A stretch of DNA of 62,313 bases from a virus: IMG/VR virus record IMGVR_UViG_3300025261_000001; one strand, written 5' to 3'. Of this stretch, positions 8,649 to 60,727 are shown piece by piece; the stretch's first letter is position 1, and the number at the start of each line of letters is the position of its first letter. Position numbers and translations under genes: made by a program. The notes beneath the pieces are model-generated. The model saw nothing but the letters and a program-made list of their open reading frames with translations, had not been told where the DNA came from and made no database searches.

Positions 8649-8930
8649 TTAGTATCCCTCGCATGACAAGTCAAACATCGCCCGATCGTTTGCCTCACGC
8701 TGCACCCATGCGGCTTCGTTAGCCGCTGCCAGCGCCGCCACGCGCAACGCTTCAATCAACCCGTGGACTGCTATGGCTTGCATGTCGCGCGCCTCTCGTG
8801 CCGTGGCGTAGCCGCTGGCGCTGTGGCTTAGGTCGCCATCGATACGGATCGTATAGCGCCATACTTGCGGCCTGCTCGGATGGTACGGGGCGCGGTAGAT
8901 GCGCCCCGGTTCAACGGTATGTTTACTCAT
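8649..8930 (-). CDS. Hypothetical protein
   Basis: 93 aa. The start overlaps the end of the upstream gene by 4 nt. Confidence 0.6.
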   Translation of the reverse strand: MSKHTVEPGRIYRAPYHPSRPQVWRYTIRIDGDLSHSASGYATAREARDMQAIAVHGLIEALRVAALAAANEAAWVQREANDRAMFDLSCEGY

Positions 8931-9823
8931 ACGTCCTCCATGCTGCGCTGCTTTTCAATCTGCTTATGGACCCATGACACCGGGTCGCTACCAAACTCGT
9001 AAGCGTCCGTAAGGTAGCCGCCCTGCATCACAACGTCCTGCGGGTCGAGGTTGAGATACTTACGGAACTCTCGTTCACGGTGGCTGTTGCCGTGCTGTGT
9101 CGGATGGCCGAACAGCCAATCACACCCGGCCATCATATCGACGTCTGTGGCCACACTCGCCAGCTTGAACGCTACGGCTCGGCAATACTGGCGCGTTGCA
9201 AAGACGGCTATGGTATTCATCAAGTCTACCGGGTGAGTCTCGATAGGCACCGTCCCGATATAGCCTGCCCCGCTGCGTTGCAGTGCCACCAGTGCGTGTA
9301 ACTCTACCGGGCGTTCTTCTGCCGTGCGCATAATGAGTGCCGCAATGCCAGCCGCACGGCGTTCTAGTTCGGCCTGTCCCGTGCCACCGGACACGACGCA
9401 CTCAATGTAATACTTGATCGGCGCTACGTTGTTTTCTTCGCGTGCACGTATCCGCATGCTATCGGGTGCGCCTGCTAGGTAGTCGCCTACCATGGGGTAG
9501 GCACCCATGAGACTAGGGTGCCACTGGTCGATAGCACGATCACGGAATGACGCGTCAATCTGATTAACCAAGTCGCGCGCCGGTTTCATGTGGGACTCAG
9601 TGATGCCGCGCTCGCAGTGGTGGACGGCATTACGTTCCGAAGTCTCCCCATAGAACGCCTGCGCGCCACGGTAGTTACCGCCATAAGCTAGCTCAATAAG
9701 TGAGCGTCCGCTCTCTGCCGTGCGGTACGTCTCGCTAACACTGGTGAACTTCTCCACCACAAGCGAACCGTAATAACGTCCATCGATCTTAACGCGCTCG
9801 CTTATTTTCTCTTGGCTAGACAT
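8927..9823 (-). CDS. Hypothetical alpha/beta protein immediately downstream of the AAA+ ATPase (possible partner subunit)
   Basis: 298 aa with an alternating beta/alpha-type pattern around IKYYIECVVSGGTGQAELERRAAGIAALI. No clean DxSxS MIDAS motif, so a vWA assignment is not supported. Confidence 0.6.
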   Translation of the reverse strand: MSSQEKISERVKIDGRYYGSLVVEKFTSVSETYRTAESGRSLIELAYGGNYRGAQAFYGETSERNAVHHCERGITESHMKPARDLVNQIDASFRDRAIDQWHPSLMGAYPMVGDYLAGAPDSMRIRAREENNVAPIKYYIECVVSGGTGQAELERRAAGIAALIMRTAEERPVELHALVALQRSGAGYIGTVPIETHPVDLMNTIAVFATRQYCRAVAFKLASVATDVDMMAGCDWLFGHPTQHGNSHREREFRKYLNLDPQDVVMQGGYLTDAYEFGSDPVSWVHKQIEKQRSMEDV

Positions 9824-9860
9824 AATCGTTTCCCGTTAGTTAGTGTTGTGTGGGTTTCAA

Positions 9861-11273
9861 TTACATACGGTTCGTAACGGTGCGCCATTGATCGTCGCTC
9901 ATACCCTTGCGGATAGTCGCAGCAATAGCGAAGTCTTGCGTAAACCCAGCGCGGATAAGCGCGGCACCACGGATGCTAGCGCGAGGCGACACCACATGCT
10001 TGATACCTGCACCCTGCACCGCTTTGCGCACCTTGTGCACATAGTTCACCCACGCATCATTGCTCGCGAGCGCACGCTCTAACGCTTCGTCGTAGCCCCA
10101 CTCCAACATGATGAACCGATCCACGGTAGCCGCATCCAACTTGTTACGGCCCACATACTCATGGGTTGCACCACTGCCGAACGTATTAGCTGCCGCGATC
10201 ACGATACAGTTTTCATGCCGCACAACGTCACCGTCCGGGAACACACAGTGACCATTCTCAAGCGCGGCATTGAGTGCCACCATGGCTTGCGGATTGCTTG
10301 CGTCCACTTCGTCAAACAGAAACACCCCGCCATGCTCATACGCTTCCCGGAACGGCGTGCGGTGCACCGTGCCGCCCGCATCACGAAAGCCAGTCAGCTT
10401 GTAGTCTGTATCTACTGCGCCGGTATGGTGGAAGTCCAAACCCATAACCTTTGCCGCGTTCATTGCTGCGGTCGTCTTGCCGCTGCCAGCCGGACCGGGA
10501 AGCCATACCGGGAACGCGTAGCCGTTATGGTCACGCACCTGTAAGAGCGACAACAACACCGGGAATTGCTTGTGCTGAATCCCCGCATTTTCCGTGCTGG
10601 TATTGCCTTCGCTATCCGTGCGCGCAATGTGAACCACGGTAGGCACCGCGCCAATCTTTGCTAGCTCCTGCCCGCACACTGCCCGCGCAATCGCTTCCAC
10701 CTGCGCCGGATCAATCGCAGGCTTATTGCTCGCTGCCAATGCCGCCATGAGATTAGCCAAAGCATCCTTTACTTCTGGCTGTGCATTCGCTTCGCCGTTG
10801 TCCGTAGGCGTCACTTGAGCCGCACTATGCGTAGCGGCTGGCTGCGCACGCTGCACTCGGCGCGGATTAGGTAGCGGCACGCTATCTGTCACCATAGAGC
10901 TAACAATCTCCTGTATGTCATCACGCGCTGCGCTGGCTTGTTCCATGGTCTGGTGATTCCCGGTGTTGTTGAAGTCGCCGTCTTGAATGTATGCGGTATG
11001 CGGCTTGCCCGCCTTACCTTTGCCCGCCTCAATAATGGCATGGCTTGATGCTTCCAACGCCGGTAGATGCGCTTCCATTTCGTTCATGCGGTCGCCGTAC
11101 GTCTGCACCATGTGTTGCGCGTAGTTCGCCTTGAACGGTTTGGCGAATGCCTTGATATCCGTAGGCTTTGCACGGCCAGACATCGCCATTTCCAGTTTGT
11201 TTATGTCGCTGGTAACAAGGTTTGCAATACGCAGCGCCATAGGGTGAGAGAACTTAAACGATAGAGTTGCCAT
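9861..11273 (-). CDS. AAA+ ATPase, MoxR/AAA_5-like C-terminal domain with a ~230-aa unique N-terminal region
   Basis: 470 aa. Walker A LPGPAGSGKTT, Walker B VFLFDEVD, followed by ...IVIAAANT...RF, typical of dynein-related/MoxR AAA_5 modules. Confidence 0.7.
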   Translation of the reverse strand: MATLSFKFSHPMALRIANLVTSDINKLEMAMSGRAKPTDIKAFAKPFKANYAQHMVQTYGDRMNEMEAHLPALEASSHAIIEAGKGKAGKPHTAYIQDGDFNNTGNHQTMEQASAARDDIQEIVSSMVTDSVPLPNPRRVQRAQPAATHSAAQVTPTDNGEANAQPEVKDALANLMAALAASNKPAIDPAQVEAIARAVCGQELAKIGAVPTVVHIARTDSEGNTSTENAGIQHKQFPVLLSLLQVRDHNGYAFPVWLPGPAGSGKTTAAMNAAKVMGLDFHHTGAVDTDYKLTGFRDAGGTVHRTPFREAYEHGGVFLFDEVDASNPQAMVALNAALENGHCVFPDGDVVRHENCIVIAAANTFGSGATHEYVGRNKLDAATVDRFIMLEWGYDEALERALASNDAWVNYVHKVRKAVQGAGIKHVVSPRASIRGAALIRAGFTQDFAIAATIRKGMSDDQWRTVTNRM

Positions 11274-37217: not shown

Positions 37218-40200
37218 ATGGCTGACGGATTATCGGCATTCGGCTTACCGCCGCAGCAGAACGCACCCCCGTTACCGCCGCCCGCGCCTGTCCAACCGAA
37301 CTACCCAATAGCAGCCCCCGGCACAGTCGATGCGGGGGCTTCGCCGTTTATGGGTCAACGGTTACCGCCTGCCGCGAGCGTACCTCCGTTACCCCCGGCT
37401 CCGCCCGTCGCTACTGCGCCAACTAATAATGGGCCGCGCGGTTTAGGTACGCCGCCTGCACAGGATGAACCGCACCCGCTGACACTGCCCGAAGCTTTGC
37501 AGCAGTGGGCACAGGTCAATGGTCGCAAGCCTACGGCTGATGAATTCGACCAGATTGCTAATGACTATCGCACTAATACTTTCGTGCCTACAATCACGAA
37601 GCTAAAGGGTGTAAAGTCAGATGCTATTAAGGCCGAAGAAGCTTCGTTCGATAACCAAGTACAGCAAGTCCGTAATCAACTTTATCCGGCTCCCCCGCCG
37701 AGTGCTGGCGGCACCGCTGGTAATATAGCGCTGTCTGCGGGCCAGCAATTCGGCGGACGCCTACTCAATAACGCAGCGCAGGTATTCGGTTTAGCTGGTG
37801 GTGGTTTAGCTGGTGGTGCTGCGGAATTAGGTGTTCCGGGCGCAGCGGCTTTACGTGACTATCTGTTCCGTGGCGTCGATCCTAATGCCAAGGGCAGTGG
37901 CATGACGGACGATCAGGCCGTACAAGCAGCTTTACAGCGTACAGGTGCCGATAAGCATTTGAATGATCCGCGTTTTGCTGGGTTGATTCAGGAAATTACA
38001 CAGCGCGCGATTGCTAATAACCATCCTGACGATAGCGCCAGCTATACCACAAATCAGTGGATGAACGCAGCCCACCAACGCAGCCCATCCGGTGCAGTAA
38101 TTGGTGACGTAGCTGCATTCGTGCCGCAGACTTTATTAGGTCCGGGTGGCGTAGCTATCGCATCTGCGGCTCCTTCGGGTAATACTGCTGAACAGCAGCT
38201 TGGTCAGGGTCAGCAATTAAGTCCGGTCTTAAAGCAGTTCGCTGTAGATAGTGGACTTAATCTGCTACTGACTAAGCTTGCACCGGGCTATGGTAAGTCA
38301 CTACTATCCAAGATTCTCACAGGTGCAGGTATCGGTGTCGGTACAGGTGTAGCACAGCAGACTTTAGACGCTCAGGTTAATCCCGAAGCGAATAAGTCGC
38401 CTACACTTGAAGACTTAATGAATCCGCAGACGGCGACGCAAGCAGGTATCGGCGCACTACTGGCCGCACTGCACGGCGGCGCGGCTACACCTATCCTCAA
38501 TAAGCTCCGCAGCAAGTCCGCAGAGGCCCCGGCTAGCGCGCCTGCCGCCGAGACGGCCCCGAACGCTACCCCTGCCGAGGGTGCAACGCCTGCCGCCGCG
38601 CAGGCCCCGGCACAAGCCCCCAGCACGGCCCCGGCTGACCGCTGGACGGCTGCAATGCAGGACGCACCGGAGCAGGGTTTAGCAGACGCAGATTTCGCTA
38701 AGCAGTCCAAGGCTACGCTTTCTGACTTTAACCAGAAGGCTAAGCTCTATGCGTCTACGGTTAAGAATAGCAAGACACCAGAAGCGGTTGTGGATAACGC
38801 CACGGCGCTCGCTTCGCGTAACCCCGCATGGGCAGATATGTCCGGCGAGCAGCGCGCCACGCTGGTAGGTGACTTGGCTACCACGCTGGGCAAGAAGGCT
38901 GGCGTGAAACCTGATGCTATCTCGGATCACTTAGCATCGTTACAAGGCGCACCTACGGAAGCTGCACCTACGGCGGAAGCTCCTACCGCAGAGGCTACAC
39001 CGCCTGAACAGGCTGCACCTACGGCACAAGCTCCGCTGGCAGAAACGCCGACGCCGCCCGAGTTGCAGGGTCAACAGCCTACCGTTAATAAAGTCGCAGT
39101 CGATCCGCTCAAGGGTGCCGCTGACCAATTAAGTGCATATTTAAGTGGTGACCAGACGGCTGTACCGGATCAAGTTAAGACCAGTCCGATCTACCAAGCC
39201 TTGCAGGGTGCGGGATTAAAGTCTTCGGATGAAGTCATCAATGTACTGCGTAAGTTCAATGATGATGGCTCAGTTAAGCCGACTGCCGAAGTAACAGGTA
39301 CCAAGCTCGCTGGTAATCGCTTAAAGAAGGGCGGTGCAGCTAAGACCGCTAACCAACAGATTGACGATCAACACAGTGCCGTCGCAAGCACTGTGGCGGA
39401 AGCTTTGTCTGATAAGTCTACGCCGACTGACACCGCTAATAAGCTCAAGGCTACAGCCAAGGGCATTAGCCAGAAGCGCTATAATCAGGAATATCTGAGT
39501 GCGCTGATGAATGATGGTGCGCCGACACAATCGGAAGCGAAGTACCGCAACGATCCTAGCTTTACCGAAGCTCGTGCCGCACTGCGTAAGGGTGAGATTA
39601 CCTCGCCTGACCAGTTAGGTGATTGGCTCAAAGCCCACCGCGCCACAAGTGAAGGTACCTCATTCGGGGAGCAGGCTCAGGCGATTACGCCGGACAACAA
39701 TAACAAACAGATGGGCGCTCTGTTAGGGGCTAAGTCCGTTAAGGCTGATGCGGTAGTAGCACGTAAACATGCGCGTGATGTGCATGACGCATTAGTTAAG
39801 CTGGGCGAAGACTCTAAGACCATTAAGTCGATGACGCTGGGCGATGCTCAGAAGATGCTGCAACGCCGTCTTAATGGGGACATTGGTGCCGAGCCGCTTC
39901 CCGAACCTACTAAGCCGCTTAAGTCCACAAAAACTAAGGCTGCAAAAGCACCGGCGGCAGAGGCTCCCGCTAGTGTAGACCCTTTAGAACAAAGCCTCCG
40001 CGAAAGGCTGGGCGATAAGCTCAGCCTAAAGGCTACGAGCGAGCTATACGATCATGTAGCCGACGCGCGTGGAGGCGGTGATGCAGGTAACCTATATGAC
40101 AATATCACGGGCCTGTTAGAGTCTGGTGATATTACCAAGGATGATGCTAAGTGGTTACGCAAGCTTGGCAAGGGCGATAGCGTCAATGATTTAATTGAGA

Positions 40201-43200
40201 ACAATGCAAGTGGCGAATCGTCTGCCTCGCTGGAAGCTCAACGCCGTCTAGCCGATGAAAAGGAAAAGGGCCAGACCCGCGCCGTGATCGGCAGGGATGG
40301 TAAGGTGCGCGCCTTGCATGGCGTCGATGCCGTGGATACTCACGCCCGTCCCGGCGAAGTCATCGTACAGCGCAATATCGGTAAGGATCGCTGGACCGTA
40401 CTTAGCCATGGCGACGATCTTGGTAAGGACGTGGTTGAGGGTAAAGTCAACCGGGCTAAGTCTGACTTGGAAGACTTGCACAATGGCGTAGAAACCGGTT
40501 TCGCAGGTGAGGACGACCATACCCCGTTCGGTGAACACACCCTCAACATGGATGATGTCGAGGAAATTAATGACTTCCGTGATGCCGCCCGTGGCGGAGA
40601 AAAGCTGACCGAAGAACGTACCGCTCCGCTCCAAGTGAAGCGCGAAGTTAATAAGGTTATCGAAGGTATCCAAAAGGGTGACACCGCGCAGGAAGCCGGT
40701 GAGAAGTTATCTGCGCTCAAGGATAAGTTAGAGCAGCGTCGCATGGAACAGCTTCTACGCGAAGCACAGCGTGAAAAGCAGCGTGGGCCGGACTATATCC
40801 GTTCGCGTCTGTATAAGATGATTTCGGATAATCTTACCCCGCTGGGCGAGAATGACCACGTAAAGGCCGGTGACTTTGCTAACTGGCTACTGGAAAAGAA
40901 TCCGAGTCTCGGCAACGATCTTGGTATCAGTATCCATCAGATGAAGGGTGCAGCGGGTAGCTATGATCCATTAAGTCGTATTCTACATTTAAATTCGCAG
41001 GACATTAACCCCGGTACAGCCGTACATGAATTGCTGCATGCGTCCGAACAGTTAATGCCCAAGGAATTGCAGGATAAGATTCGTGCAGAGTACATCGCAC
41101 GTCTGGGTAATAAGCTTAAGCAGGCTACAGCAGATGGTAATCGCTGGGCCAAGCTTTACTTACAGTCGGCCATGCACAACTATGTTAACCCTAACGCGGA
41201 AGCGCGTCGGGTAATGAATACCATCTTGCAAAAGTATCGAAGCGAAGTCCCGGTAAAGGATTACTACAAATACTATGATCCGTCCGAGTATTTCGCAAAT
41301 GAAGGTACAGATATCCTGTCCCGTAAGTTTGAGAATAATGGCTGGGTAGGTAAGGCCAAGGAATGGATGAACGAAATGGTTCAGCACTTAAAGAACCTTT
41401 TCGGCTGGGATAATAGCTCGGCAGTATATAAGGGTATCAAGAATGCACTTAACACCGAAGGCGGTGAGCGTAGCAGTGGCATGCTTAGTCGTCGTGGTCC
41501 GGCTCGCGATGTCGAAGGAGGTGCGGCAGATGATGCCAACCGATTTCAAGACATTAACGACGAGGGTGAAGGCTCGGAAGGCGAAGCCGAACCCACTCAA
41601 GAAAAGTTAGGCTATGAGCCTACTGAGAAGGTAAGTGACGATGCTTATCTCTCAACCAAGACGCCCAAAGAACAAGCCGTAGAAGCGAAGGCTGATGCGA
41701 AGGAACGCATTCAGAGCCAAGGTAAAGTAGGTAATGGTCAACGCTTCTGGGAACAGGTAGCGAAGGCTGACTACGGCCTCGAAAAAGCCATGCAGGAGTA
41801 TCGTGGTAAGGGCATTGAAGTAACGCCCGAGAATAACGTAGATGATGCTTCCTACACGAAGAATGGTCTGACAAACGAATATACTAACCGTGACTTCGAT
41901 GAAGTGGTCGCGCCGGTAGACGATTATTTGTCGAAGAACTGGTCTAAGTTCGCCAAGAATAAGGGCGCATTCTTAGATGACTTAAATACGTTCTTCGGCA
42001 ATATGAACTTTATCGAGCGCATGAAGTCGGATCACTTGGAGAATGCGCCGCTCAACAACGGTGCAGAGATTGACCGCGCCGAAGTCTTAGAGAAGGTAGC
42101 AAGCGGCGATCTTGACCCGGCCAAGGGTCGCGCCGAACTGCAACGCCTGATGGCTAATAATGGCTCGATCACATGGGATGATTGGGCACGCCAACAGAAG
42201 GTGCCGGTGGATGAGATTCAAGCTACGCTCAAGCAGTTAAAGGCACGCGGCTACGATGAGAAGTCGATGGCCGACTTAAATGGTATGCTCGATAATGTCC
42301 GTGACCGCCAGCGTTCGCGCCTTGAAGGCGCAGGCTTGGTAGCTAAGGATGACCCGTGGACGAAGTTCTATGGATGGAAGTGGTATGTACCGCTTAAGGG
42401 TTCACCGGAAGATGTATTAAGTAATAACTTTGACCTTGCTTCGCGGCAGGGTAGCTTGCGCGTACTTAATGCCCAGCTACAGGCGATGGAAGGTCGTAAG
42501 ACAGAAGGCGAGCGCCCATTTAGCCGTCTGTTCGTAGACACGAGCCGCGCCGCCGAGCGCCACGCTCACAGCTATTTCCTCGACCGTGTGTACAACTTGG
42601 CAGCGGAACATGGCAAAGAGATTGGCGCTAAGATTTATCCGTTTGAAGGCCGTCCGCGTGATGGCTATACCAACGAGAATGGTGACCACTTTGCCGAACT
42701 ACGCGCCCCTAAGAATGGCGTTATTGTGCACGATGGTAATCAGCATTACGTCATCACTCTGCCGAAGGATAGTCAGTTACTTCGCGGACTCGTGCAGATG
42801 AATAATGTGGAAGCGCCGAACGCATTAGATCGTATCGCAGGTAAGGGAACGCATATTCTCTCGCGCCTGTATACGACCGTGCATCCGGCGTGGCAGACAT
42901 TCTCAGGTTTTGCGCGTGACTTAACCTACACTCCGATTACACTGGCAGCAACTAAGTTTAGCAATCCTTTAGAGGCCATCCCGTTCTGGAATAAGTACAG
43001 TAAGAACGTACTGCAAGCCTACGGCGCACTGCCCGATATGATCCCGACTTTATTGGGTAAGCATAATGCGCTCCGCGCTAAGGGCGAAGCCGATCCGCAA
43101 AGCTGGGCTGGCTGGACACAGCGTTATATGGCCGCAGGCGGTAGCAATGCCTTTAGTCATGTATTCGATGTAAAGTCGCTGGAAAACACATTCACCAATA

Positions 43201-44561
43201 AGCTCAAGGATACCCGCCCCGGTGTGGATGGTGTCGTAGACATAGGTAAGTGGGGTTGGGAGCAGGTATTAAAGTATACAGGTAACTATGCTAACTTTAT
43301 GGAAGCAATCCCCCGTGTCGCGGCTTTCCGTACACTGGTGGAAGGTGGTGCATCCGAACACGACGCGGCCACGCAAGTTCGTAAGCTGCTGGACTACAGC
43401 CAGTCCGGCATTAAGGGCCGTCGCATCAATTCGTGGTTAGCGTTCTTCCGAGTCGGTGCTACGGGCGTGGATGCCATGCGACGCGCTTTCACTAAGCCGA
43501 CAGGCGGGTTTGACTACGCTAAGGCGGCTAAGTGGCAGACGTTCATGGCGGCGCTGGGTGCGGTAGGCTACATGACCGCTAACATGATGCTGGGTAAGGA
43601 TGACGATGGCATAGATCGCATTGCTAAGCTCAAGCCTGAAACTATCGGCACTAAGATTTTGATCCCGCTGCCCGGTGGAAAGATCGGCGGTATCAGTCTG
43701 GGTCTAGGCTTACCTCAGATCATGCTGAGTGTCGGTGCGCTGGGTGCGGCGTTCGCTAACGGCCACCAGTCGGCAGAGGACGCCGGGAAGGCGTATCTAT
43801 CGATCTTGGCGCGTAACTCGGCCCTGTCCCCCGGGGGTATCAAGGACGCAACGCCGACGAACGTGGTGAGCGCCCTGCTGGGTTCCTTCGTGCCTACGGT
43901 AGCGCGCCCGCTGGTGGACGTGGCGACCAATACCAATAGCTTCGGTACTAGCATCCACAACGACAGCCCCAACTCCAAGGCATACCACTCCGACCAAGGC
44001 CGGGGTACTACGCCTAAAGAGTACAAGGAAATGGCGAACTTCCTGCGCCAAGTAACGGGCGGGACAGTGGACTACTACCCGGAAGACATTAGATACCTGA
44101 TTCAGAACTACGGCGGTCAGTGGGGCACGGACATTATGAAGATGATCGTGTCTGACCCCAATAAAGCGGCTGGTGCAGGCGAAGAACCTAATAGGCTCGC
44201 TAGCCACTTTATCGTGAATGATGGTCAGTTCTATATGCAAGACCAGTTGTACAAGACGCTCGATAATCTTGGCGACTCGGTTAAGCGATATAACCACATT
44301 GTAACGCAAGCTCAAGCCGATGGTGCTGACAAAGACCAAGCCAAGGCGCAAGCGCAACAGGTACTTAATCGTGATAGCGCCATGCGTAACGAGGTGTCGG
44401 CGTACGGTACACTTCAACAGGCGGTCAAGCAGTACAACCAAGGCTTGAATGATCTACGCCAGAATAAGCTTGCTAGTGACCAACGTAAGCAGCTTGTACG
44501 TAAACAGCTTGATAGCCAGCTACGTCAAGCTCTGACACGCGCCCAAGCCGTAGAACAGTAA
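37218..44561 (+). CDS. Giant multidomain virion/ejection protein with an HExxH zincin motif
   Basis: 2447 aa. Pro/Ala-rich N-terminus. Gly/Ala-rich hydrophobic (TM-like) segments around aa 170-440 and 2080-2160. Ala/Pro/Thr/Glu linkers. HELLH at aa 1270-1274 (nt 41025..41039) in the context GTAVHELLHASEQ. Confidence 0.7.
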   Translation: MADGLSAFGLPPQQNAPPLPPPAPVQPNYPIAAPGTVDAGASPFMGQRLPPAASVPPLPPAPPVATAPTNNGPRGLGTPPAQDEPHPLTLPEALQQWAQVNGRKPTADEFDQIANDYRTNTFVPTITKLKGVKSDAIKAEEASFDNQVQQVRNQLYPAPPPSAGGTAGNIALSAGQQFGGRLLNNAAQVFGLAGGGLAGGAAELGVPGAAALRDYLFRGVDPNAKGSGMTDDQAVQAALQRTGADKHLNDPRFAGLIQEITQRAIANNHPDDSASYTTNQWMNAAHQRSPSGAVIGDVAAFVPQTLLGPGGVAIASAAPSGNTAEQQLGQGQQLSPVLKQFAVDSGLNLLLTKLAPGYGKSLLSKILTGAGIGVGTGVAQQTLDAQVNPEANKSPTLEDLMNPQTATQAGIGALLAALHGGAATPILNKLRSKSAEAPASAPAAETAPNATPAEGATPAAAQAPAQAPSTAPADRWTAAMQDAPEQGLADADFAKQSKATLSDFNQKAKLYASTVKNSKTPEAVVDNATALASRNPAWADMSGEQRATLVGDLATTLGKKAGVKPDAISDHLASLQGAPTEAAPTAEAPTAEATPPEQAAPTAQAPLAETPTPPELQGQQPTVNKVAVDPLKGAADQLSAYLSGDQTAVPDQVKTSPIYQALQGAGLKSSDEVINVLRKFNDDGSVKPTAEVTGTKLAGNRLKKGGAAKTANQQIDDQHSAVASTVAEALSDKSTPTDTANKLKATAKGISQKRYNQEYLSALMNDGAPTQSEAKYRNDPSFTEARAALRKGEITSPDQLGDWLKAHRATSEGTSFGEQAQAITPDNNNKQMGALLGAKSVKADAVVARKHARDVHDALVKLGEDSKTIKSMTLGDAQKMLQRRLNGDIGAEPLPEPTKPLKSTKTKAAKAPAAEAPASVDPLEQSLRERLGDKLSLKATSELYDHVADARGGGDAGNLYDNITGLLESGDITKDDAKWLRKLGKGDSVNDLIENNASGESSASLEAQRRLADEKEKGQTRAVIGRDGKVRALHGVDAVDTHARPGEVIVQRNIGKDRWTVLSHGDDLGKDVVEGKVNRAKSDLEDLHNGVETGFAGEDDHTPFGEHTLNMDDVEEINDFRDAARGGEKLTEERTAPLQVKREVNKVIEGIQKGDTAQEAGEKLSALKDKLEQRRMEQLLREAQREKQRGPDYIRSRLYKMISDNLTPLGENDHVKAGDFANWLLEKNPSLGNDLGISIHQMKGAAGSYDPLSRILHLNSQDINPGTAVHELLHASEQLMPKELQDKIRAEYIARLGNKLKQATADGNRWAKLYLQSAMHNYVNPNAEARRVMNTILQKYRSEVPVKDYYKYYDPSEYFANEGTDILSRKFENNGWVGKAKEWMNEMVQHLKNLFGWDNSSAVYKGIKNALNTEGGERSSGMLSRRGPARDVEGGAADDANRFQDINDEGEGSEGEAEPTQEKLGYEPTEKVSDDAYLSTKTPKEQAVEAKADAKERIQSQGKVGNGQRFWEQVAKADYGLEKAMQEYRGKGIEVTPENNVDDASYTKNGLTNEYTNRDFDEVVAPVDDYLSKNWSKFAKNKGAFLDDLNTFFGNMNFIERMKSDHLENAPLNNGAEIDRAEVLEKVASGDLDPAKGRAELQRLMANNGSITWDDWARQQKVPVDEIQATLKQLKARGYDEKSMADLNGMLDNVRDRQRSRLEGAGLVAKDDPWTKFYGWKWYVPLKGSPEDVLSNNFDLASRQGSLRVLNAQLQAMEGRKTEGERPFSRLFVDTSRAAERHAHSYFLDRVYNLAAEHGKEIGAKIYPFEGRPRDGYTNENGDHFAELRAPKNGVIVHDGNQHYVITLPKDSQLLRGLVQMNNVEAPNALDRIAGKGTHILSRLYTTVHPAWQTFSGFARDLTYTPITLAATKFSNPLEAIPFWNKYSKNVLQAYGALPDMIPTLLGKHNALRAKGEADPQSWAGWTQRYMAAGGSNAFSHVFDVKSLENTFTNKLKDTRPGVDGVVDIGKWGWEQVLKYTGNYANFMEAIPRVAAFRTLVEGGASEHDAATQVRKLLDYSQSGIKGRRINSWLAFFRVGATGVDAMRRAFTKPTGGFDYAKAAKWQTFMAALGAVGYMTANMMLGKDDDGIDRIAKLKPETIGTKILIPLPGGKIGGISLGLGLPQIMLSVGALGAAFANGHQSAEDAGKAYLSILARNSALSPGGIKDATPTNVVSALLGSFVPTVARPLVDVATNTNSFGTSIHNDSPNSKAYHSDQGRGTTPKEYKEMANFLRQVTGGTVDYYPEDIRYLIQNYGGQWGTDIMKMIVSDPNKAAGAGEEPNRLASHFIVNDGQFYMQDQLYKTLDNLGDSVKRYNHIVTQAQADGADKDQAKAQAQQVLNRDSAMRNEVSAYGTLQQAVKQYNQGLNDLRQNKLASDQRKQLVRKQLDSQLRQALTRAQAVEQ

Positions 44562-55105: not shown

Positions 55106-55271
55106 AGACTTTCTCCATCAGTACCTTGTTCCAGTGATCTGCGACGTCCCAGCCCCAGCGCACTGCGTAGCTAACTTCGTAGAGCATCCAGCCTACGGCC
55201 ATGAAAGGGAATGTTGCGATGGCGAGTGCGACCAAGTAAATGATCGAACCACCCTTCTTAAGTTTCTTCAC
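55095..55271 (-). CDS. Candidate TM micro-protein (58 aa, GTG start)
   Basis: GTG 55271..55269 overlaps the polymerase stop (GTGA). Peptide (M)KKLKKGGSIIYLVALAIATFPFMAVGWMLYEVSYAVRWGWDVADHWNKVLMEKVYEQ fills the 162-nt gap. Confidence 0.35.
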   Translation of the reverse strand: MKKLKKGGSIIYLVALAIATFPFMAVGWMLYEVSYAVRWGWDVADHWNKVLMEKVYEQ

Positions 55272-57250
55272 TTCGCGTCTCCATACCTGTAGCCTGTGGA
55301 TACTTCAATACCGAGAGGCAGACCCTTTAAGTACGATACGGCTCGGGTCATAATCTCTGTGACCTTTATGGTGTACGGACCTAATTGAGTAACAACTTCC
55401 TTTTGTTTTTCTTCATTCCATTCCTTGGTGTCTACTTCGTCTTCCGGCACCAGTGAAACTAATTCGTCGTGGGTAGTCATCACCACGGGGTAGAACTTAT
55501 GTAGTTCGATCTTCTGTTCGCGCATCACCAGAGCGGCTACGGCCTGCACAATGTTCTCTGTGATCTTACCGCCGAACAGCTTAACATACTTGCTACCGTC
55601 AAGATAGGTAACTTCACCGTCTGCGTTCTTGGTCAGGCCCGGGTACTTAATGCACAAACCATTGGGCAACTTAATCGCAGGCTGATGGAAGATCGGATCA
55701 AGACAGGTAGACACCAGCGCGTCGCCTTGCATCGGTAGGTTCACACCCACCTGACCCTGCATCATGCCATTAATGGCCTTGGTGCATTGACGCCAGAACG
55801 CTGCTACACCCTTAAATGTATCGCGGTACAGCCTGACAATGCTTTCTGCAAACTCAGCCGTGATACCTTGGATACCACTGGCCTTACAGTATTCAATGAA
55901 TCGACCCGGACCCATGCCGAAGCCCAGACCTAATACGGCGGACTTAGCAATCTGGCGTTCGAACGGCGTATCCTTTTTATTGATCGGCTTACCGTAGATA
56001 CGGGTACCGAACCAACCATAAATGTCGCCGCCTTCGGCCATCACCTTTAGGGCTTTGGCTTCCTCGCTATCGGGTCCGGCAATCTGCATTCCAAGCCATA
56101 GAGTGATACGCGCTTCAATCTGGCTAAGATCGCTGACACCGAGTACATAGGGTTCGGGAGCGTAGATAGCTTTACGAAGCGTACCCCCTCGCTTGAGATT
56201 CTGAGGATTACCCCCGCCGCCCTTGTTGCCCGAATAGCGCTGGGTGACTTGCGCGCCCGCGTAGTTATATCCGACCGGCCAGTACCCGCGCTGCGACGCT
56301 GCATGATACAGGACAGAACGCGTTTCCTCGATAGTAGACTTGTGCTCAAGTCGCGCGGCGACCAGTGCTTGTACGTCTGGGTTCTCGTGGTCGAGCAGTT
56401 CCTTAAGACCCTCATCTGTCTTTGCGAAGGCGTATGCAACCTTACCAGCCTTAGTGATCTTTGTTGGAGGCGTAACACCTAGGTTCTCCAAGGCTGTAGC
56501 AAACTTGGGATTCGACATCAGGACGGCACGGTCTTCTAAACCTGCGTTCACCAATGCCTGCGCCTTCTGGACCTTTAGTTCTTCCATGTAATCTACTAGC
56601 AGGTCTGTGTCTAGTAGCAACTGTGGATTGGTGAACGCGCGGATCGTCCAATCCATCGCCTTAATCTCACTCTTGGGGAAGTGAGGTAAAAGCTTCTGTA
56701 GTAAAGCGTAGGTTAGTTCTGTATCACCGGCTTCCCAATGTCCGCTACTATTAGGTGAGCCGTCGAATGACGTTCCTTCCACCCAGCGAGGCGCACCTAC
56801 GCAATAGTCTGCAATGCGCGCTTCAAGCTGTGGACTTAGATCACGTACATTATATGACTTAGACAGTTCATCCATCTTCGTCATATTGCATAATAGCTGC
56901 GCCACGTACTTAAGACCATGGCGCGTACTATGTGGACCCACCAATGCCCGACTTAATGCTAAGGTATCGATGTACAACTTCGGGTAGACGTTATAGTGCC
57001 AGCCTAAGATACTACCGTCGAAGGGCAGGTTATGCCCTACCATTGCATTGTTCTCTAAGTCTAACTTAGAAAGCACCGCTGGGATATGCCTAGCAGTCAC
57101 CCAGCGGCTAGGGCCATTATTGATCTTGACCCCCATGCCATGGACCTTGAAACGCTCATCGCGGATATAGGATTCCGTAGTCACGTCTTTTAGACTAAGG
57201 GAGTATCCGTCTCCGTAATAAGTTTCAAAATCGACGGTAATTAGTTTCAT
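55268..57250 (-). CDS. Family A DNA polymerase with an N-terminal 3'-5' exonuclease domain
   Basis: 660 aa. Exo I ITVDFETY, Exo II HNLPFDGSIL, Pol motif A VSDLSQIEARI, motif B RQIAKSAVLGLGFGMG, motif C VMTTHDELV. Confidence 0.9.
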   Translation of the reverse strand: MKLITVDFETYYGDGYSLSLKDVTTESYIRDERFKVHGMGVKINNGPSRWVTARHIPAVLSKLDLENNAMVGHNLPFDGSILGWHYNVYPKLYIDTLALSRALVGPHSTRHGLKYVAQLLCNMTKMDELSKSYNVRDLSPQLEARIADYCVGAPRWVEGTSFDGSPNSSGHWEAGDTELTYALLQKLLPHFPKSEIKAMDWTIRAFTNPQLLLDTDLLVDYMEELKVQKAQALVNAGLEDRAVLMSNPKFATALENLGVTPPTKITKAGKVAYAFAKTDEGLKELLDHENPDVQALVAARLEHKSTIEETRSVLYHAASQRGYWPVGYNYAGAQVTQRYSGNKGGGGNPQNLKRGGTLRKAIYAPEPYVLGVSDLSQIEARITLWLGMQIAGPDSEEAKALKVMAEGGDIYGWFGTRIYGKPINKKDTPFERQIAKSAVLGLGFGMGPGRFIEYCKASGIQGITAEFAESIVRLYRDTFKGVAAFWRQCTKAINGMMQGQVGVNLPMQGDALVSTCLDPIFHQPAIKLPNGLCIKYPGLTKNADGEVTYLDGSKYVKLFGGKITENIVQAVAALVMREQKIELHKFYPVVMTTHDELVSLVPEDEVDTKEWNEEKQKEVVTQLGPYTIKVTEIMTRAVSYLKGLPLGIEVSTGYRYGDAK

Positions 57251-57426
57251 TGCTTAGGCTTCGGCTCTTTGTCGATGGCATTGTCTCGGAGAATCTTGAC
57301 GGCAGGCGGTGCCTTGTAGCCCAGCTTTAGCTGCCGCCCGTGGATATCCAAGACGACCAACGTAATCTTGATACCCTCCACTTCCATGTCAATCACATCG
57401 CCCTTGCGGTGTGTCATCACTAACAT
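57247..57426 (-). CDS. csrA: CsrA/RsmA-family RNA-binding protein homologue
   Basis: 59 aa from ATG 57426 (AAGGAG 5 nt upstream). MLVMTHRKGDVIDMEVEGIKITLVVLDIHGRQLKLGYKAPPAVKILRDNAIDKE aligns with E. coli CsrA [48 protein letters not shown]. ATGA coupling to polA. Confidence 0.7.
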   Translation of the reverse strand: MLVMTHRKGDVIDMEVEGIKITLVVLDIHGRQLKLGYKAPPAVKILRDNAIDKEPKPKQ

Positions 57427-57787
57427 ACATGCTCCTTTGCGTTCGATACAAACATTCTTTGGAGCAGAAGCAGCGTTTCTTTCTGCTCCTACTACTTCGT
57501 TGTGCTGTGGAAAGAACAAACTCTTTCCCACATCCTGCGCACGTCCCTTTCTCGTACACGCAAGGGTTAGACTTAGCGGTGTTTTCTCCACTACTGAGCA
57601 GCTTTAGGTTATCGTACTCGTCATTAGTGACGTCCCCATCTTTATGATCGACGGTTTCGTCACCCACTAGCCTACGGCCTAACTTAATTTCGAGCCGGAC
57701 TTTAGCTAACTGCCTTGCTGAACGTCGAAAGCCATCGTACATAATGACTATCGAACGCCTATCTTTTCGCACATAAGGGCCATACAC
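57389..57787 (-). CDS. HNH homing-type endonuclease (start uncertain)
   Basis: HNH core GDETVDHKDGDVTNDEYDNLKLL plus a C-terminal CAGCG...CFCSKEC zinc finger. The track ORF start at 57937 lies upstream of tRNA-Leu and reads through it. Likely starts are GTG 57787 or ATG 57742. The 3' end overlaps the csrA start by 38 nt. Confidence 0.65.
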   Translation of the reverse strand: MYGPYVRKDRRSIVIMYDGFRRSARQLAKVRLEIKLGRRLVGDETVDHKDGDVTNDEYDNLKLLSSGENTAKSNPCVYEKGTCAGCGKEFVLSTAQRSSRSRKKRCFCSKECLYRTQRSMYVSDDTPQGRCD

Positions 57788-57840
57788 CGTACGAAACTCT
57801 GGGTATAGTAACTTTATGGCAGCTAGCTCACTGTCCGATA

Positions 57841-57925
57841 TGGTGCGACAAGTGGGACTCGAACCCACAAAGCTCTCGCTGGCGACTCTTAAGGACGCTG
57901 TGTTTACCAATTTCACCATTGTCGC
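57841..57925 (-). tRNA. tRNA-Leu (anticodon UAA), type II with long variable arm, CCA encoded
   Basis: Cloverleaf read by eye: acceptor gcgacaa/ttgtcgc, D-arm gtg-aaattggtaaa-cac, anticodon arm gcgtc-cttaaga-gtcgc (one T.T mismatch), 13-nt variable arm, T-arm gtggg-ttcgagt-cccac, then acca. Confidence 0.8.
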
Positions 57926-57950
57926 GTACTCCACCATCGCGGCTATTCTA

Positions 57951-58544
57951 TTAACCGCCCTGTGTATCGTTACCTACGCGTGTTGCGTACCACTTATCAC
58001 GCAGTGCACGGCTGGCCTCACGCATAAGATTCGCTTGGTGCACGGCATCGTTCAGGGCGTTGTGTGCGTCTGCCTTGTGGATGGCAGGGTACGCCGTGGG
58101 GATCACCGACATAACCGTACGCACGTCGCGGTGGTTCCAGAACGGCCATCGGTAATCAATAGCCGGTACGGTACGCTTGAGCAGGGAGTTCAGGATAACA
58201 CAGTCGAAGTCCGGTCCCTTAGCCCAGATACCCTTAGCCCGATTAATTTCTTCCATTAAGTTCGGGATTACGTCGAGGAATCGCTCGGGCTTCTGTGCGC
58301 TGTATTCACTCGGGAAAGCAGCCAAGCGGGCTTCGTCGCCCTGACCCATCCACCACGCAATGGTTTTGTAGTCGGCTTCCGCGCCATCCTTCATCTGACT
58401 TTCTACATCGAGGATATGGTACTGCATGCCGTGCGGCTGGACCGTGGGATCATCCCAGCTAAACCAACACCAGCCGACGCTAAGTACCGGCGCGTTAGGG
58501 CCTTGGCCCAAAGTTTCGATATCGATACTGATATCTGTAGACAT
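57951..58544 (-). CDS. DEDDh 3'-5' exonuclease (DnaQ/RNase T-like)
   Basis: Start at ATG 58544 (overlaps the upstream stop). Exo I SIDIETLG, Exo III HNALNDAVHQ. Confidence 0.7.
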   Translation of the reverse strand: MSTDISIDIETLGQGPNAPVLSVGWCWFSWDDPTVQPHGMQYHILDVESQMKDGAEADYKTIAWWMGQGDEARLAAFPSEYSAQKPERFLDVIPNLMEEINRAKGIWAKGPDFDCVILNSLLKRTVPAIDYRWPFWNHRDVRTVMSVIPTAYPAIHKADAHNALNDAVHQANLMREASRALRDKWYATRVGNDTQGG

Positions 58545-59503: not shown

Positions 59504-59731
59504 TTAAGTTCTGCGCAATGCGTTGGATACCGTACGCTTGAAATTCTGTTCCAGCGTCCTGCCTTTACTTGAATTGATGGTAACGATAGCTAAATCATCG
59601 CCGTCCTTGTCGGTACGGAAATAAGTTGTAGCCCCGTAACCACCAATCATGAAATTCGGTATATCAGTAATGCCTAGCTTCACTAGCGCCTTTCGGAATT
59701 CCTTTTCCGAAGTATACAGCGCGTAGTGCAT
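59504..59731 (-). CDS. Hypothetical protein
   Basis: 75 aa. Confidence 0.55.
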   Translation of the reverse strand: MHYALYTSEKEFRKALVKLGITDIPNFMIGGYGATTYFRTDKDGDDLAIVTINSSKGRTLEQNFKRTVSNALRRT

Positions 59732-60651: not shown

Positions 60652-60727
60652 TGGTGCCGGTAGCAGGAATCGAACCCACGACCGCCTACTTACAAGGTAG
60701 ATGCTCTACCAACTGAGCTATACCGGC
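60652..60727 (-). tRNA. tRNA-Thr (anticodon UGU), CCA encoded
   Basis: Cloverleaf read by eye: acceptor gccggta/taccggc, D-arm gctc-agttggta-gagc, anticodon arm tctac-cttgtaa-gtagg, T-arm gtggg-ttcgatt-cctgc (two G.U pairs), then acca. Confidence 0.8.

What the first reader, a model, noticed from the sequence alone, without database searches (positions are those of the whole stretch)
57247..57426. Phage-encoded CsrA/RsmA homologue translationally coupled to the DNA polymerase gene
Seen: the 59-aa ORF has a strong SD (AAGGAG, 5-nt spacer). Its sequence MLVMTHRKGDVIDMEVEGIKITLVVLDIHGRQLKLGYKAPPAVKILRDNAIDKE aligns over its whole length with E. coli CsrA. Shared elements are ML.(L/M)T.R.G(E/D), VL, G.Q(V/L)(R/K)(I/L)G, AP..V and the conserved Arg of the VHRE segment, with one 2-aa insertion. 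Its stop overlaps the polA ATG (ATGA). The six-frame track hides it inside a 114-aa ORF.

Established: CsrA proteins bind GGA motifs in mRNA leaders and globally reprogramme translation and mRNA stability.

Inference: this is a phage copy that could hijack or buffer the host Csr/Rsm network during replication, or regulate phage mRNAs. Phage-borne CsrA genes are uncommon and poorly characterised.
Basis: partly seen in the sequence, partly recalled or inferred. Interest (0 to 1): 0.65.

Follow-up and report, generated by a model that had tools for sequence, protein, structure and literature searches.

The report
Phage CsrA gene abutting DNA polymerase
An uncultured 62-kb phage carries a real but divergent copy of the bacterial RNA-binding regulator CsrA inside its DNA-replication operon; phage csrA genes are already catalogued, so this is a new member of a known kind.

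Summary
A 59-codon ORF lies on the minus strand at 57426..57247. It has an AAGGAG Shine-Dalgarno (SD) site 5 nt upstream, and its TGA stop overlaps the ATG of a family-A DNA polymerase (ATGA).

- **Family:** it scores above the Pfam CsrA gathering threshold (38.3 vs 27 bits). The RNA-binding arginine is kept (R47 = E. coli R44). An AlphaFold2 model (pLDDT 86) matches only CsrA/RsmA/RsmE structures.
- **Divergence:** identity to E. coli CsrA is about 30%, and it falls far below the NCBIfam csrA equivalog cut-offs.
- **Conservation:** all eight related viral contigs (polymerase 61-78% identical) keep a csrA between the exonuclease and the polymerase. Six of them place thyX and a DUF3310 gene in between.
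- **The overlap:** direct abutment with the polymerase is specific to this phage, which also gained an HNH endonuclease upstream. Such overlaps are the norm in this genome.
- **Prior knowledge:** phage csrA genes were surveyed in 2020-2021 (about 1% of phages), and one was tested for fitness in 2025.
- **Targets:** unknown. One lead is a conserved GGA-loop hairpin in the polymerase leader of three relatives. It is absent here.

Verdict: a real CsrA homologue, a new member of a known kind, of moderate interest.

The parts
57247..57426 (-). csrA-like gene, 59 codons plus stop
   Evidence: Pfam CsrA 38.3 bits, above the gathering score of 27. The AF2 model matches only CsrA/RsmA/RsmE chains. Public assemblies call the same gene with PF02599 on 11 contigs. 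Orthologues occur in all 8 close relatives.
57432..57437 (-). Shine-Dalgarno AAGGAG of csrA, 5-nt spacer to the ATG
   Evidence: Read directly. Duplex with the anti-SD is -7.9 kcal/mol. The site contains a GGA.
57247..57250 (-). ATGA overlap of the csrA stop (TGA) and the polymerase start (ATG)
   Evidence: Read directly. The polymerase has no usable SD of its own (-2.1 kcal/mol).
55268..57250 (-). family-A DNA polymerase with a 3'-5' exonuclease domain, 660 aa
   Evidence: Pfam DNA_pol_A, and PHROG 17 at E 3e-73.
57389..57787 (-). HNH endonuclease gene, about 132 aa (start uncertain). Its last 38 nt overlap the csrA start in another frame.
   Evidence: PHROG 14913 at E 9e-16, matching residues 56-169 of the 182-aa mechanical ORF. 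The first ~32 codons of that ORF are tRNA-Leu. A 132-aa version is called on one public contig. It is absent from all 8 relatives.
57841..57925 (-). tRNA-Leu (anticodon TAA)
   Evidence: ARAGORN and Rfam tRNA at 55.8 bits.
57951..58544 (-). DEDD-type 3'-5' exonuclease (Rv2179c-like), 197 aa as called on public contigs
   Evidence: Pfam PF16473 at E 9e-33, gene call. It is conserved upstream of csrA in the relatives.

Best explanation
This is a genuine, expressed, divergent member of the CsrA/RsmA family. It is carried as a stable component of the replication-gene operon of an uncultured lineage of ~62-kb phages.

By homology, the protein most likely forms the usual intertwined homodimer. That dimer binds GGA motifs in RNA, typically in hairpin loops and Shine-Dalgarno regions, and so changes translation or stability of the bound transcripts.

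The gene is transcribed with the exonuclease, HNH and polymerase genes on one long minus-strand message. It has the only strong ribosome-binding site in this stretch. Ribosomes terminating at its TGA probably restart at the overlapping polymerase ATG. CsrA and polymerase would then be made together during the replication phase.

Shown here: gene identity, fold, conservation of the key arginine, clade-wide conservation, and operon anatomy.
Inferred: dimerisation, RNA binding, coupling, and the targets.

The targets are unknown. The likeliest are host Csr/Rsm-regulated transcripts or sponge RNAs, as proposed for other phage CsrA proteins. Phage mRNAs are a second possibility.
For: **Family membership**
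- Pfam CsrA scores above its gathering threshold.
- PHROG 'CsrA-like regulator' matches.
- PDB sequence hits are all CsrA/RsmA/RsmE.
- The AF2 model has pLDDT 86.4. Its 14 best PDB fold matches are all CsrA/RsmA/RsmE, with TM 0.6-0.7.

**Key residues**
- M1, L2, G36, A39, P40 and R47 are invariant across 19 aligned family members. They correspond to E. coli M1, L2, G33, A36, P37 and R44.
- R44 is the arginine essential for RNA binding (PMC7366521, citing Heeb 2006 and Schubert 2007).

**A real gene under selection**
- An identical protein is called on 11 public contigs.
- Orthologues are present in all 8 relatives whose polymerase is 61-78% identical. They are always on the same strand, between the exonuclease and the polymerase.
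- Non-synonymous differences (0.29-0.39 per site) are well below synonymous ones (0.71-0.81). dN/dS is about 0.17 for the one pair that is not saturated.

**Operon and coupling**
- No promoter-like or terminator-like site lies on the minus strand between 55 and 60 kb.
- The stop and start overlap as ATGA. SD strength is -7.9 kcal/mol for csrA and -2.1 for the polymerase.

**Precedent**
- Phage csrA genes sit in early, replication or recombination operons in VvAW1, F116 and Dartukuta.
- Knockdown of the PTXU04 csrA homologue reduces plaque size (PMC11879866).
Against: - No RNA-binding, dimer or expression data exist for this protein.
- It is divergent, with 30% identity to E. coli CsrA. It scores 33 bits against a 73-bit NCBIfam equivalog cut-off.
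- The basic pair R6-R7 of strand beta1 is H6-R7 here. It is not kept in the relatives (G-N, H-T, S-K, A-A), so affinity or specificity may differ from canonical CsrA.
- GGA-loop hairpins are no more frequent in the window than in random sequence: 95 and 101 observed against 93.5 +/- 9.9 expected.
- No CsrB/RsmY/RsmZ-like RNA is encoded.
- The host is unknown, so whether it has a Csr system is unknown.
- The polymerase overlap is unique to this phage and is typical of junctions throughout the genome.
Confidence: 0.75

Rival explanations
1. The phage CsrA is a dedicated regulator of the phage's own replication genes, above all the DNA polymerase. In relatives it would bind a GGA hairpin in the polymerase leader. 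In this phage the leader was lost, and control was replaced by direct translational coupling. CsrA binding at its own GGA-containing SD would then throttle both genes as a negative feedback.
For: - A conserved hairpin, AGGCC-AAGGA(U/C)-GGCCU, presents GGA in its loop. It matches the known ARGGAU loop preference of CsrA (that preference is from my own knowledge of SELEX work, not tested here).
- The hairpin lies 17-19 nt upstream of the polymerase ATG in L001, L021 and L022. In L005 it lies upstream of an inserted small ORF whose SD, AAGGAG, supplies a second GGA 13 nt away.
- L021 has a second GGA hairpin 30 nt upstream.
- GGA hairpins within 80 nt upstream of the polymerase occur in 6 of 12 csrA-positive loci and 8 of 45 csrA-negative loci.
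- The csrA SD here contains GGA. A second AGGAGC lies 52 nt upstream.
Against: - The hairpin is absent from the window and from four other csrA-bearing relatives: L024, L025, L026 and L027.
- The stem shows no covariation. The loci are related, so the 6/12 against 8/45 contrast is not independent.
- The identical 19-nt hairpin also occurs in an unrelated viral contig, between a tail-fibre gene and a small membrane-protein gene, with no csrA in the 13 kb held. It may be a target of host CsrA, or something unrelated to CsrA.
- The csrA leader fold is not significant (z -1.5), and that leader lies in window-specific HNH DNA.
Confidence: 0.15
2. The protein keeps the CsrA fold but no longer acts as an RNA-binding repressor. 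It might instead act as a decoy. Possible routes are forming inactive heterodimers with host CsrA, or soaking up a host CsrA antagonist.
For: - The beta1 basic residues are variable across the clade.
- Divergence is high.
- The C-terminal tail is short and proline/lysine-rich, and the model shows only a 3-residue helix.
Against: - The essential arginine and the GxxAP core are invariant.
- The hydrophobic beta1 (MLVM) and beta5 (VKIL) positions are conservatively kept.
- No precedent for such a decoy turned up in the papers read.
Confidence: 0.07
3. The ORF is a chance reading frame or an untranslated remnant.
For: It is short. Its first 12 codons overlap the end of the HNH ORF.
Against: - The Pfam score is above threshold.
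- The ORF is conserved with intact length in 8 diverged relatives, with dN well below dS.
- It has a strong, correctly spaced SD.
- The HNH profile match ends before the overlap.
Confidence: 0.02

Closest known systems
Chromosomal CsrA/RsmA/RsmE global translational regulators (E. coli CsrA, Pseudomonas RsmA/RsmE; PDB 1Y00, 1VPZ, 2JPP)
   Same: Same Pfam family, size and predicted fold. The N-terminal ML(V/I)(L/M)T motif, the G-x-x-A-P core and the essential arginine (R44 equivalent) are all present.
   Different: - Identity is only about 30%.
- There is a 3-residue insertion between beta1 and beta2.
- H replaces R6.
- 'ILRDNA' replaces 'VHREEI'.
- The C-terminal helix is very short.
- It falls far below the csrA equivalog cut-offs.
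- It is encoded in a phage replication operon, with no sponge RNA in the genome.
Previously catalogued phage-encoded CsrA/RsmA homologues: E. coli phage PTXU04 gp28, Pseudomonas F116/H66 'RsmM' type, Vibrio VvAW1 gp26, Burkholderia Bcep22/DC1/CSP3 (PMC7366521, PMC8450108, PMC11879866, PMC10269572)
   Same: - It is a small CsrA-family gene carried by a tailed phage.
- It lies among early, replication or recombination genes. In VvAW1 the gene overlaps a DEDD exonuclease gene, and here an exonuclease lies two genes upstream.
- Like PTXU04, this phage also encodes a giant 'polyvalent' protein, shown by an LPD38 domain.
   Different: - tblastn at E <= 1e-3 finds no match to any of 50,697 deposited phage records.
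- The closest protein anywhere is 45% identical.
- Direct ATGA overlap with the DNA polymerase gene was not seen in the three cultured phage contexts inspected (VvAW1, F116, Dartukuta) or in its own relatives.
- The lineage is uncultured. The nearest cultured phages are at 32% for both polymerase and capsid.
Plasmid- and ICE-borne CsrA homologues (RsmQ of pQBR103, PMC9928087; Legionella ICE CsrT, cited in PMC7366521)
   Same: A mobile-element copy of a host global RNA-binding regulator, proposed or shown to reprogramme host translation.
   Different: Those sit on plasmids or ICEs and act over long-term carriage. This one is in what looks like a lytic phage's replication module, with no integrase seen among the ORFs examined. 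Nothing is known of its targets.

Membership tests
CsrA/RsmA protein family (Pfam PF02599) | Profile match above the curated gathering score over most of the domain | tested here: met
   38.3 bits against 27, E 1.3e-9, model positions 1-50 of 53. A precomputed PF02599 hit is attached to the same protein in public data.
CsrA/RsmA protein family (Pfam PF02599) | Conserved arginine essential for RNA binding (E. coli R44), and the G-x-x-A-P core | tested here: met
   R47, G36, A39 and P40 are invariant in alignment A1. L2 and R47 are invariant in the 46-sequence alignment A2. The role of R44 is taken from PMC7366521.
CsrA/RsmA protein family (Pfam PF02599) | Beta1 RNA-contact motif M-L-(I/V)-L-(T/S)-R-(R/K) | tested here: inconclusive
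   The sequence here is MLVMTHR. The hydrophobic positions are kept conservatively, R6 is H and R7 is kept. Relatives have G-N, H-T, S-K or A-A at positions 6-7.
CsrA/RsmA protein family (Pfam PF02599) | CsrA fold (five strands plus a short helix) | tested here: met
   The AF2 monomer has pLDDT 86.4. The top 14 Foldseek PDB matches are all CsrA/RsmA/RsmE, with TM 0.6-0.7 and probability 1.0. Beta1 and beta5 are modelled as coil, as expected for a chain that pairs them with a partner subunit.
CsrA/RsmA protein family (Pfam PF02599) | Intertwined homodimer | not testable with these tools
   Only single-chain prediction was available.
CsrA/RsmA protein family (Pfam PF02599) | Binds GGA-containing RNA | not testable with these tools
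   This needs gel-shift or CLIP experiments. In-silico site counts in the window are at chance level.
Chromosomal csrA equivalog (NCBIfam TIGR00202 / NF002469) | Score above the equivalog cut-off | tested here: not met
   33.0 bits against 73, and 28.8 bits against 70.1. It is a family member, not an orthologue of the housekeeping regulator.
Complete Csr/Rsm system | Cognate multi-GGA sponge RNA (CsrB/CsrC, RsmX/Y/Z) encoded alongside | tested here: not met
   Rfam at gathering thresholds finds only two tRNAs in the window. GGA density peaks fall in glutamate-rich coding DNA.
Translationally coupled gene pair | Stop/start overlap, with no independent ribosome-binding site for the downstream gene | tested here: met
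   ATGA overlap. The best anti-SD duplex for the polymerase is -2.1 kcal/mol at position -22, against -7.9 for csrA.
Translationally coupled gene pair | The arrangement is conserved in relatives, which would indicate a selected link | tested here: not met
   The gaps between csrA and the polymerase in the 8 relatives are 258 to 1730 nt. thyX and a DUF3310 gene lie between them in six relatives.

The most novel reading that the evidence does not exclude
In this phage lineage CsrA is a dedicated post-transcriptional governor of replication. In relatives it acts through a conserved GGA-loop hairpin in the DNA polymerase leader. In this phage, deletion of thyX and the DUF3310 gene fused the regulator directly to its target by stop/start overlap. 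Binding of CsrA to its own GGA-containing SD would then set polymerase output. This would be the first defined cis-target and role for a phage CsrA.
Probability: 0.12. Interest if true: 0.65.

Novelty: new member of a known kind. Interest (0 to 1): 0.38.

Why it matters
What phage-borne CsrA proteins do is still open. Surveys list them. One knockdown shows a fitness effect. Host manipulation, including repression of CRISPR-Cas, has been proposed but not shown.

This case adds an uncultured phage clade in which csrA is as stably kept as the exonuclease and polymerase genes around it. That argues for a role in the lytic replication programme, not an accessory 'moron' role. It also supplies a concrete RNA candidate to test, the GGA hairpin ahead of the polymerase gene in relatives.

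It does not by itself reveal a new mechanism.

Tried and rejected
- **Word-indexed protein search:** it returned only the protein itself. The full HMMER scan was needed and gave 67 weak family hits, the best non-self at 45% identity.
- **Deposited phages:** megablast and tblastn found nothing for the locus or the protein.
- **The search for related loci with the 19-sequence CsrA alignment:** it failed for lack of a conserved 7-10 column stretch. I replaced it with a degenerate DNA pattern and later with a polymerase alignment.
- **The same pattern in GTDB genomes:** it hit only 8 contigs, mostly chromosomal CsrA of Campylobacterales. This gave no host clue.
- **Sponge RNA:** the Rfam scan was negative.
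- **Binding-site statistics in the window:**
  - CANGGANG occurs 42 times against 26.9 +/- 5.1 expected. This is a mild excess with no link to start codons.
  - GGA density peaks lie in glutamate-rich coding DNA.
  - GGA-loop hairpins are at random expectation.
- **Hairpin at 59711-59692:** it has a 7-bp stem, an AAGGAA loop and z -2.9. It is not conserved in the one relative with a detectable homologue, L022, so I dropped it.
- **csrA leader fold:** the SD can pair with an upstream GCUCC. The fold is not significant (z -1.5) and lies in window-specific HNH DNA.
- **dN/dS between the window and its relatives:** synonymous sites are saturated, so only the proportions are informative.
- **Nearest cultured phages by polymerase (KPP25 and a Rhizobium phage):** neither has a csrA within 7 kb of the polymerase.
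Full report
**1. Observation**

The feature is on the minus strand. Reading 57960..57230 in reverse complement gives ...CAAAGGAGCATGT ATG TTA GTG ATG ACA CAC..., ending ...CCT AAG CAA TGA.
- The ATG is at 57426 and the stop is at 57249-57247, giving 59 codons.
- AAGGAG (57437-57432) lies 5 nt before the ATG.
- The next gene's ATG (57250-57248) shares three bases with the TGA (ATGA).
- The mechanical ORF list shows the gene only as the tail of a 114-aa GTG ORF.

The insertion relative to E. coli CsrA is 3 residues, not 2.

**2. Identity**

- Pfam CsrA (PF02599) matches residues 1-53 at 38.3 bits (gathering 27), E 1.3e-9.
- PHROG 9500 'CsrA-like regulator' and two sister PHROGs match at E 4e-6 to 2e-5.
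- A sequence search of the PDB returns only CsrA, RsmA, RsmE and RsmN/F chains.
- An AlphaFold2 model built on 46 family sequences has mean pLDDT 86.4.
- Its 14 best structural matches in the PDB are all CsrA/RsmA/RsmE chains, with TM 0.6-0.7. The next hit has probability 0.14.
- In an alignment with E. coli CsrA, Pseudomonas RsmE, B. subtilis CsrA and 15 other family members, the invariant columns are M1, L2, G36, A39, P40 and R47. These are E. coli M1, L2, G33, A36, P37 and R44.
- R44 is the residue reported as essential for RNA binding (PMC7366521).

The protein is nevertheless divergent.
- Identity to E. coli CsrA is 30%.
- The NCBIfam csrA equivalog models score 33 and 29 bits against cut-offs of 73 and 70.
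- An exhaustive HMMER scan of 1.84 billion representative proteins finds only 67 proteins at E <= 1e-3. The best non-self hit is 45% identical.
- H replaces R6, and 'ILRDNA' replaces 'VHREEI'.

**3. The gene is real and conserved**

The identical protein is called, with a CsrA Pfam label, on 11 public contigs. Three of them were compared and are 100% identical in DNA to the window across the exonuclease-to-polymerase stretch.

A search of IMG/VR with a polymerase alignment returned 80 loci. An HMM built from the family alignment finds a csrA in every one of the eight close relatives (polymerase 61-78% identical). It is always on the polymerase strand, between the DEDD exonuclease and the polymerase. 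It also finds csrA in a few distant loci. It finds none near the polymerase of the nearest cultured phages, KPP25 and Rhizobium phage RHph_TM3_14A.

The CsrA proteins evolve fast. They are 41-46% identical to the window's, where the polymerases are 77-78% identical. Non-synonymous change (0.29-0.39 per site) is still well below synonymous change (0.71-0.81). dN/dS is about 0.17 for the one unsaturated pair.

**4. Neighbourhood and what is special here**

The window is essentially a whole phage genome.
- Terminase, portal/adaptor, capsid and baseplate genes, and a 2447-aa protein with an LPD38 'polyvalent protein' domain, lie on the plus strand (12.7-44.6 kb).
- Primase/helicase, helicase, ligase, polymerase and exonuclease genes lie on the minus strand.

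The local order on the minus strand is orf187, orf124, exonuclease (58544-57951), tRNA-Leu (57925-57841), HNH endonuclease (about 57787-57389), csrA, polymerase. No promoter-like or terminator-like site is seen on this strand between 55 and 60 kb, which fits one long transcript.

In six relatives, csrA is followed by thyX and a DUF3310 gene before the polymerase. The csrA-thyX junction overlaps by 4 to about 20 nt. The window lacks both genes, so csrA abuts the polymerase. It alone has the HNH gene. The non-conserved tail of that HNH gene runs 38 nt into csrA in another frame.

The csrA-polymerase overlap is therefore a lineage-specific consequence of gene loss. One- and four-base overlaps are the norm at junctions across this genome.

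Coupling is still plausible. csrA has a strong, well-placed SD (-7.9 kcal/mol). The polymerase has none (-2.1 kcal/mol). The polymerases of two relatives checked (L001, L005) also have weak SDs, at -3.5 and -3.9 kcal/mol.

**5. Mechanism**

The best-supported reading is a functional CsrA-type RNA-binding regulator made together with the replication proteins. Identity, fold, the key arginine, conservation and operon anatomy are shown. Dimerisation, GGA binding, reinitiation at the polymerase ATG and the targets are inferred.

I looked for targets and found nothing convincing in the window.
- No sponge-RNA family is present.
- GGA-loop hairpins are at random expectation.
- There is a mild excess of CANGGANG with no positional pattern.
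- Density peaks are explained by glutamate codons.

There is one lead from the relatives. A hairpin, AGGCC-AAGGA(U/C)-GGCCU, presents GGA in its loop. It sits 17-19 nt upstream of the polymerase ATG in L001, L021 and L022. In L005 it sits upstream of an inserted small ORF whose SD supplies a second GGA.
- This resembles a high-affinity CsrA site. That resemblance rests on my knowledge of the SELEX consensus and was not tested here.
- It is absent from the window and from the other four relatives.
- It shows no stem covariation.
- The same 19-mer also occurs in an unrelated viral contig with no csrA in the part held.

I therefore rank 'dedicated regulator of the polymerase' as a minority rival.

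**6. What is known**

Phage csrA genes are established.
- Sobrero and Valverde (PMC7366521) found them in 30 of 2517 phage genomes, including F116, H66, Bcep22, DC1, VvAW1 and PTXU04.
- Campa et al. (PMC8450108) searched GenBank phages and IMG/VR with PF02599 and a phage-specific HMM. They proposed host manipulation, including CRISPR-Cas repression.
- CRISPRi-ART knockdown of PTXU04 gp28 reduced plaque size (PMC11879866).
- In the current phage collection, E. coli CsrA alone detects 88 records by tblastn, many of them annotated as csrA.
- The contexts inspected are early, replication or recombination regions. In VvAW1 the csrA overlaps a DEDD exonuclease gene.

This locus is therefore a new and rather divergent member of a known kind. 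It has no detectable match in deposited phages. It belongs to an uncultured lineage whose nearest cultured relatives share 32% identity in polymerase and capsid.

**7. Verdict**

Novelty is modest. The added value lies in three points: clade-wide conservation of csrA within the replication module, the demonstration that the polymerase overlap is a recent and local arrangement, and a testable hairpin candidate in relatives.

Noticed in passing
L001:3932-3947; L021:5968-5983; L022:5970-5985; L005:2167-2182; L104:9530-9548: A conserved 16-nt hairpin, AGGCC-AAGGA(U/C)-GGCCU, has GGA in its loop. It lies 17-19 nt upstream of the DNA polymerase ATG in three csrA-bearing relatives, and upstream of a small inserted ORF in a fourth. 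The same 19-mer lies between a tail-fibre gene and a small membrane-protein gene in an unrelated viral contig. It is a candidate CsrA site or an unusual ribosome-binding element. It is absent from the window.
   Followed up: partly
window 57389-57787 (-): An HNH endonuclease gene is present only in this phage among nine clade members. It is wedged between tRNA-Leu and csrA. Its non-conserved 13-residue tail overlaps the first 12 csrA codons in another frame. It is probably a recent homing-endonuclease insertion.
   Followed up: partly
window 57841-57925 (-) and 60652-60727 (-): Two phage tRNA genes, tRNA-Leu(TAA) and tRNA-Thr(TGT). The mechanical 182-aa 'HNH' ORF and some public gene calls read through tRNA-Leu, so those N-termini are artefacts.
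   Followed up: yes
window 57247-57250 compared with L001:2504-3924: This phage lacks the thyX (Thy1) and DUF3310 genes that sit between csrA and the polymerase in six relatives. No copy is found elsewhere in the window by tblastn.
   Followed up: yes
window 37218-44561 (+): A 2447-aa ORF has no PHROG match but carries a Pfam LPD38 'large polyvalent protein associated' domain near its C-terminus. E. coli phage PTXU04, which also carries a csrA homologue, has a 2198-aa putative polyvalent protein. Whether the co-occurrence is meaningful is unknown.
   Followed up: no
window 59692-59711 (-): A perfect 7-bp stem with an AAGGAA loop (UUCGGAA-AAGGAA-UUCCGAA) lies 20 nt inside a 75-codon ORF, within a larger fold (z -2.9). 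It is not conserved in the one relative with a detectable homologue (L022).
   Followed up: partly
window 57459-57489 (-): Two GGAGC elements could compete for one GCUCC: the csrA SD, and a copy 52 nt upstream. This gives alternative pairings that would hide or expose the csrA SD. The fold is not statistically significant (z -1.5) and lies in HNH coding DNA.
   Followed up: partly
L007:11030-11287 (-), L009:5075-5332 (-), L006:8324-8548 (+): CsrA-like genes with the same K-x-G-(F/Y)-x-A-P-x-x-V-x-I-x-R-D signature occur in unrelated viral contigs. One is a high-GC temperate phage with an integrase nearby. Another is a 66-kb contig where the gene precedes a YqaJ-like exonuclease.
   Followed up: partly
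window 8927-11273 (-): A MoxR/CbbQ-type AAA ATPase (PHROG label 'porphyrin biosynthesis', CobS-like) lies next to a DUF7192 protein in the minus-strand early region.
   Followed up: no
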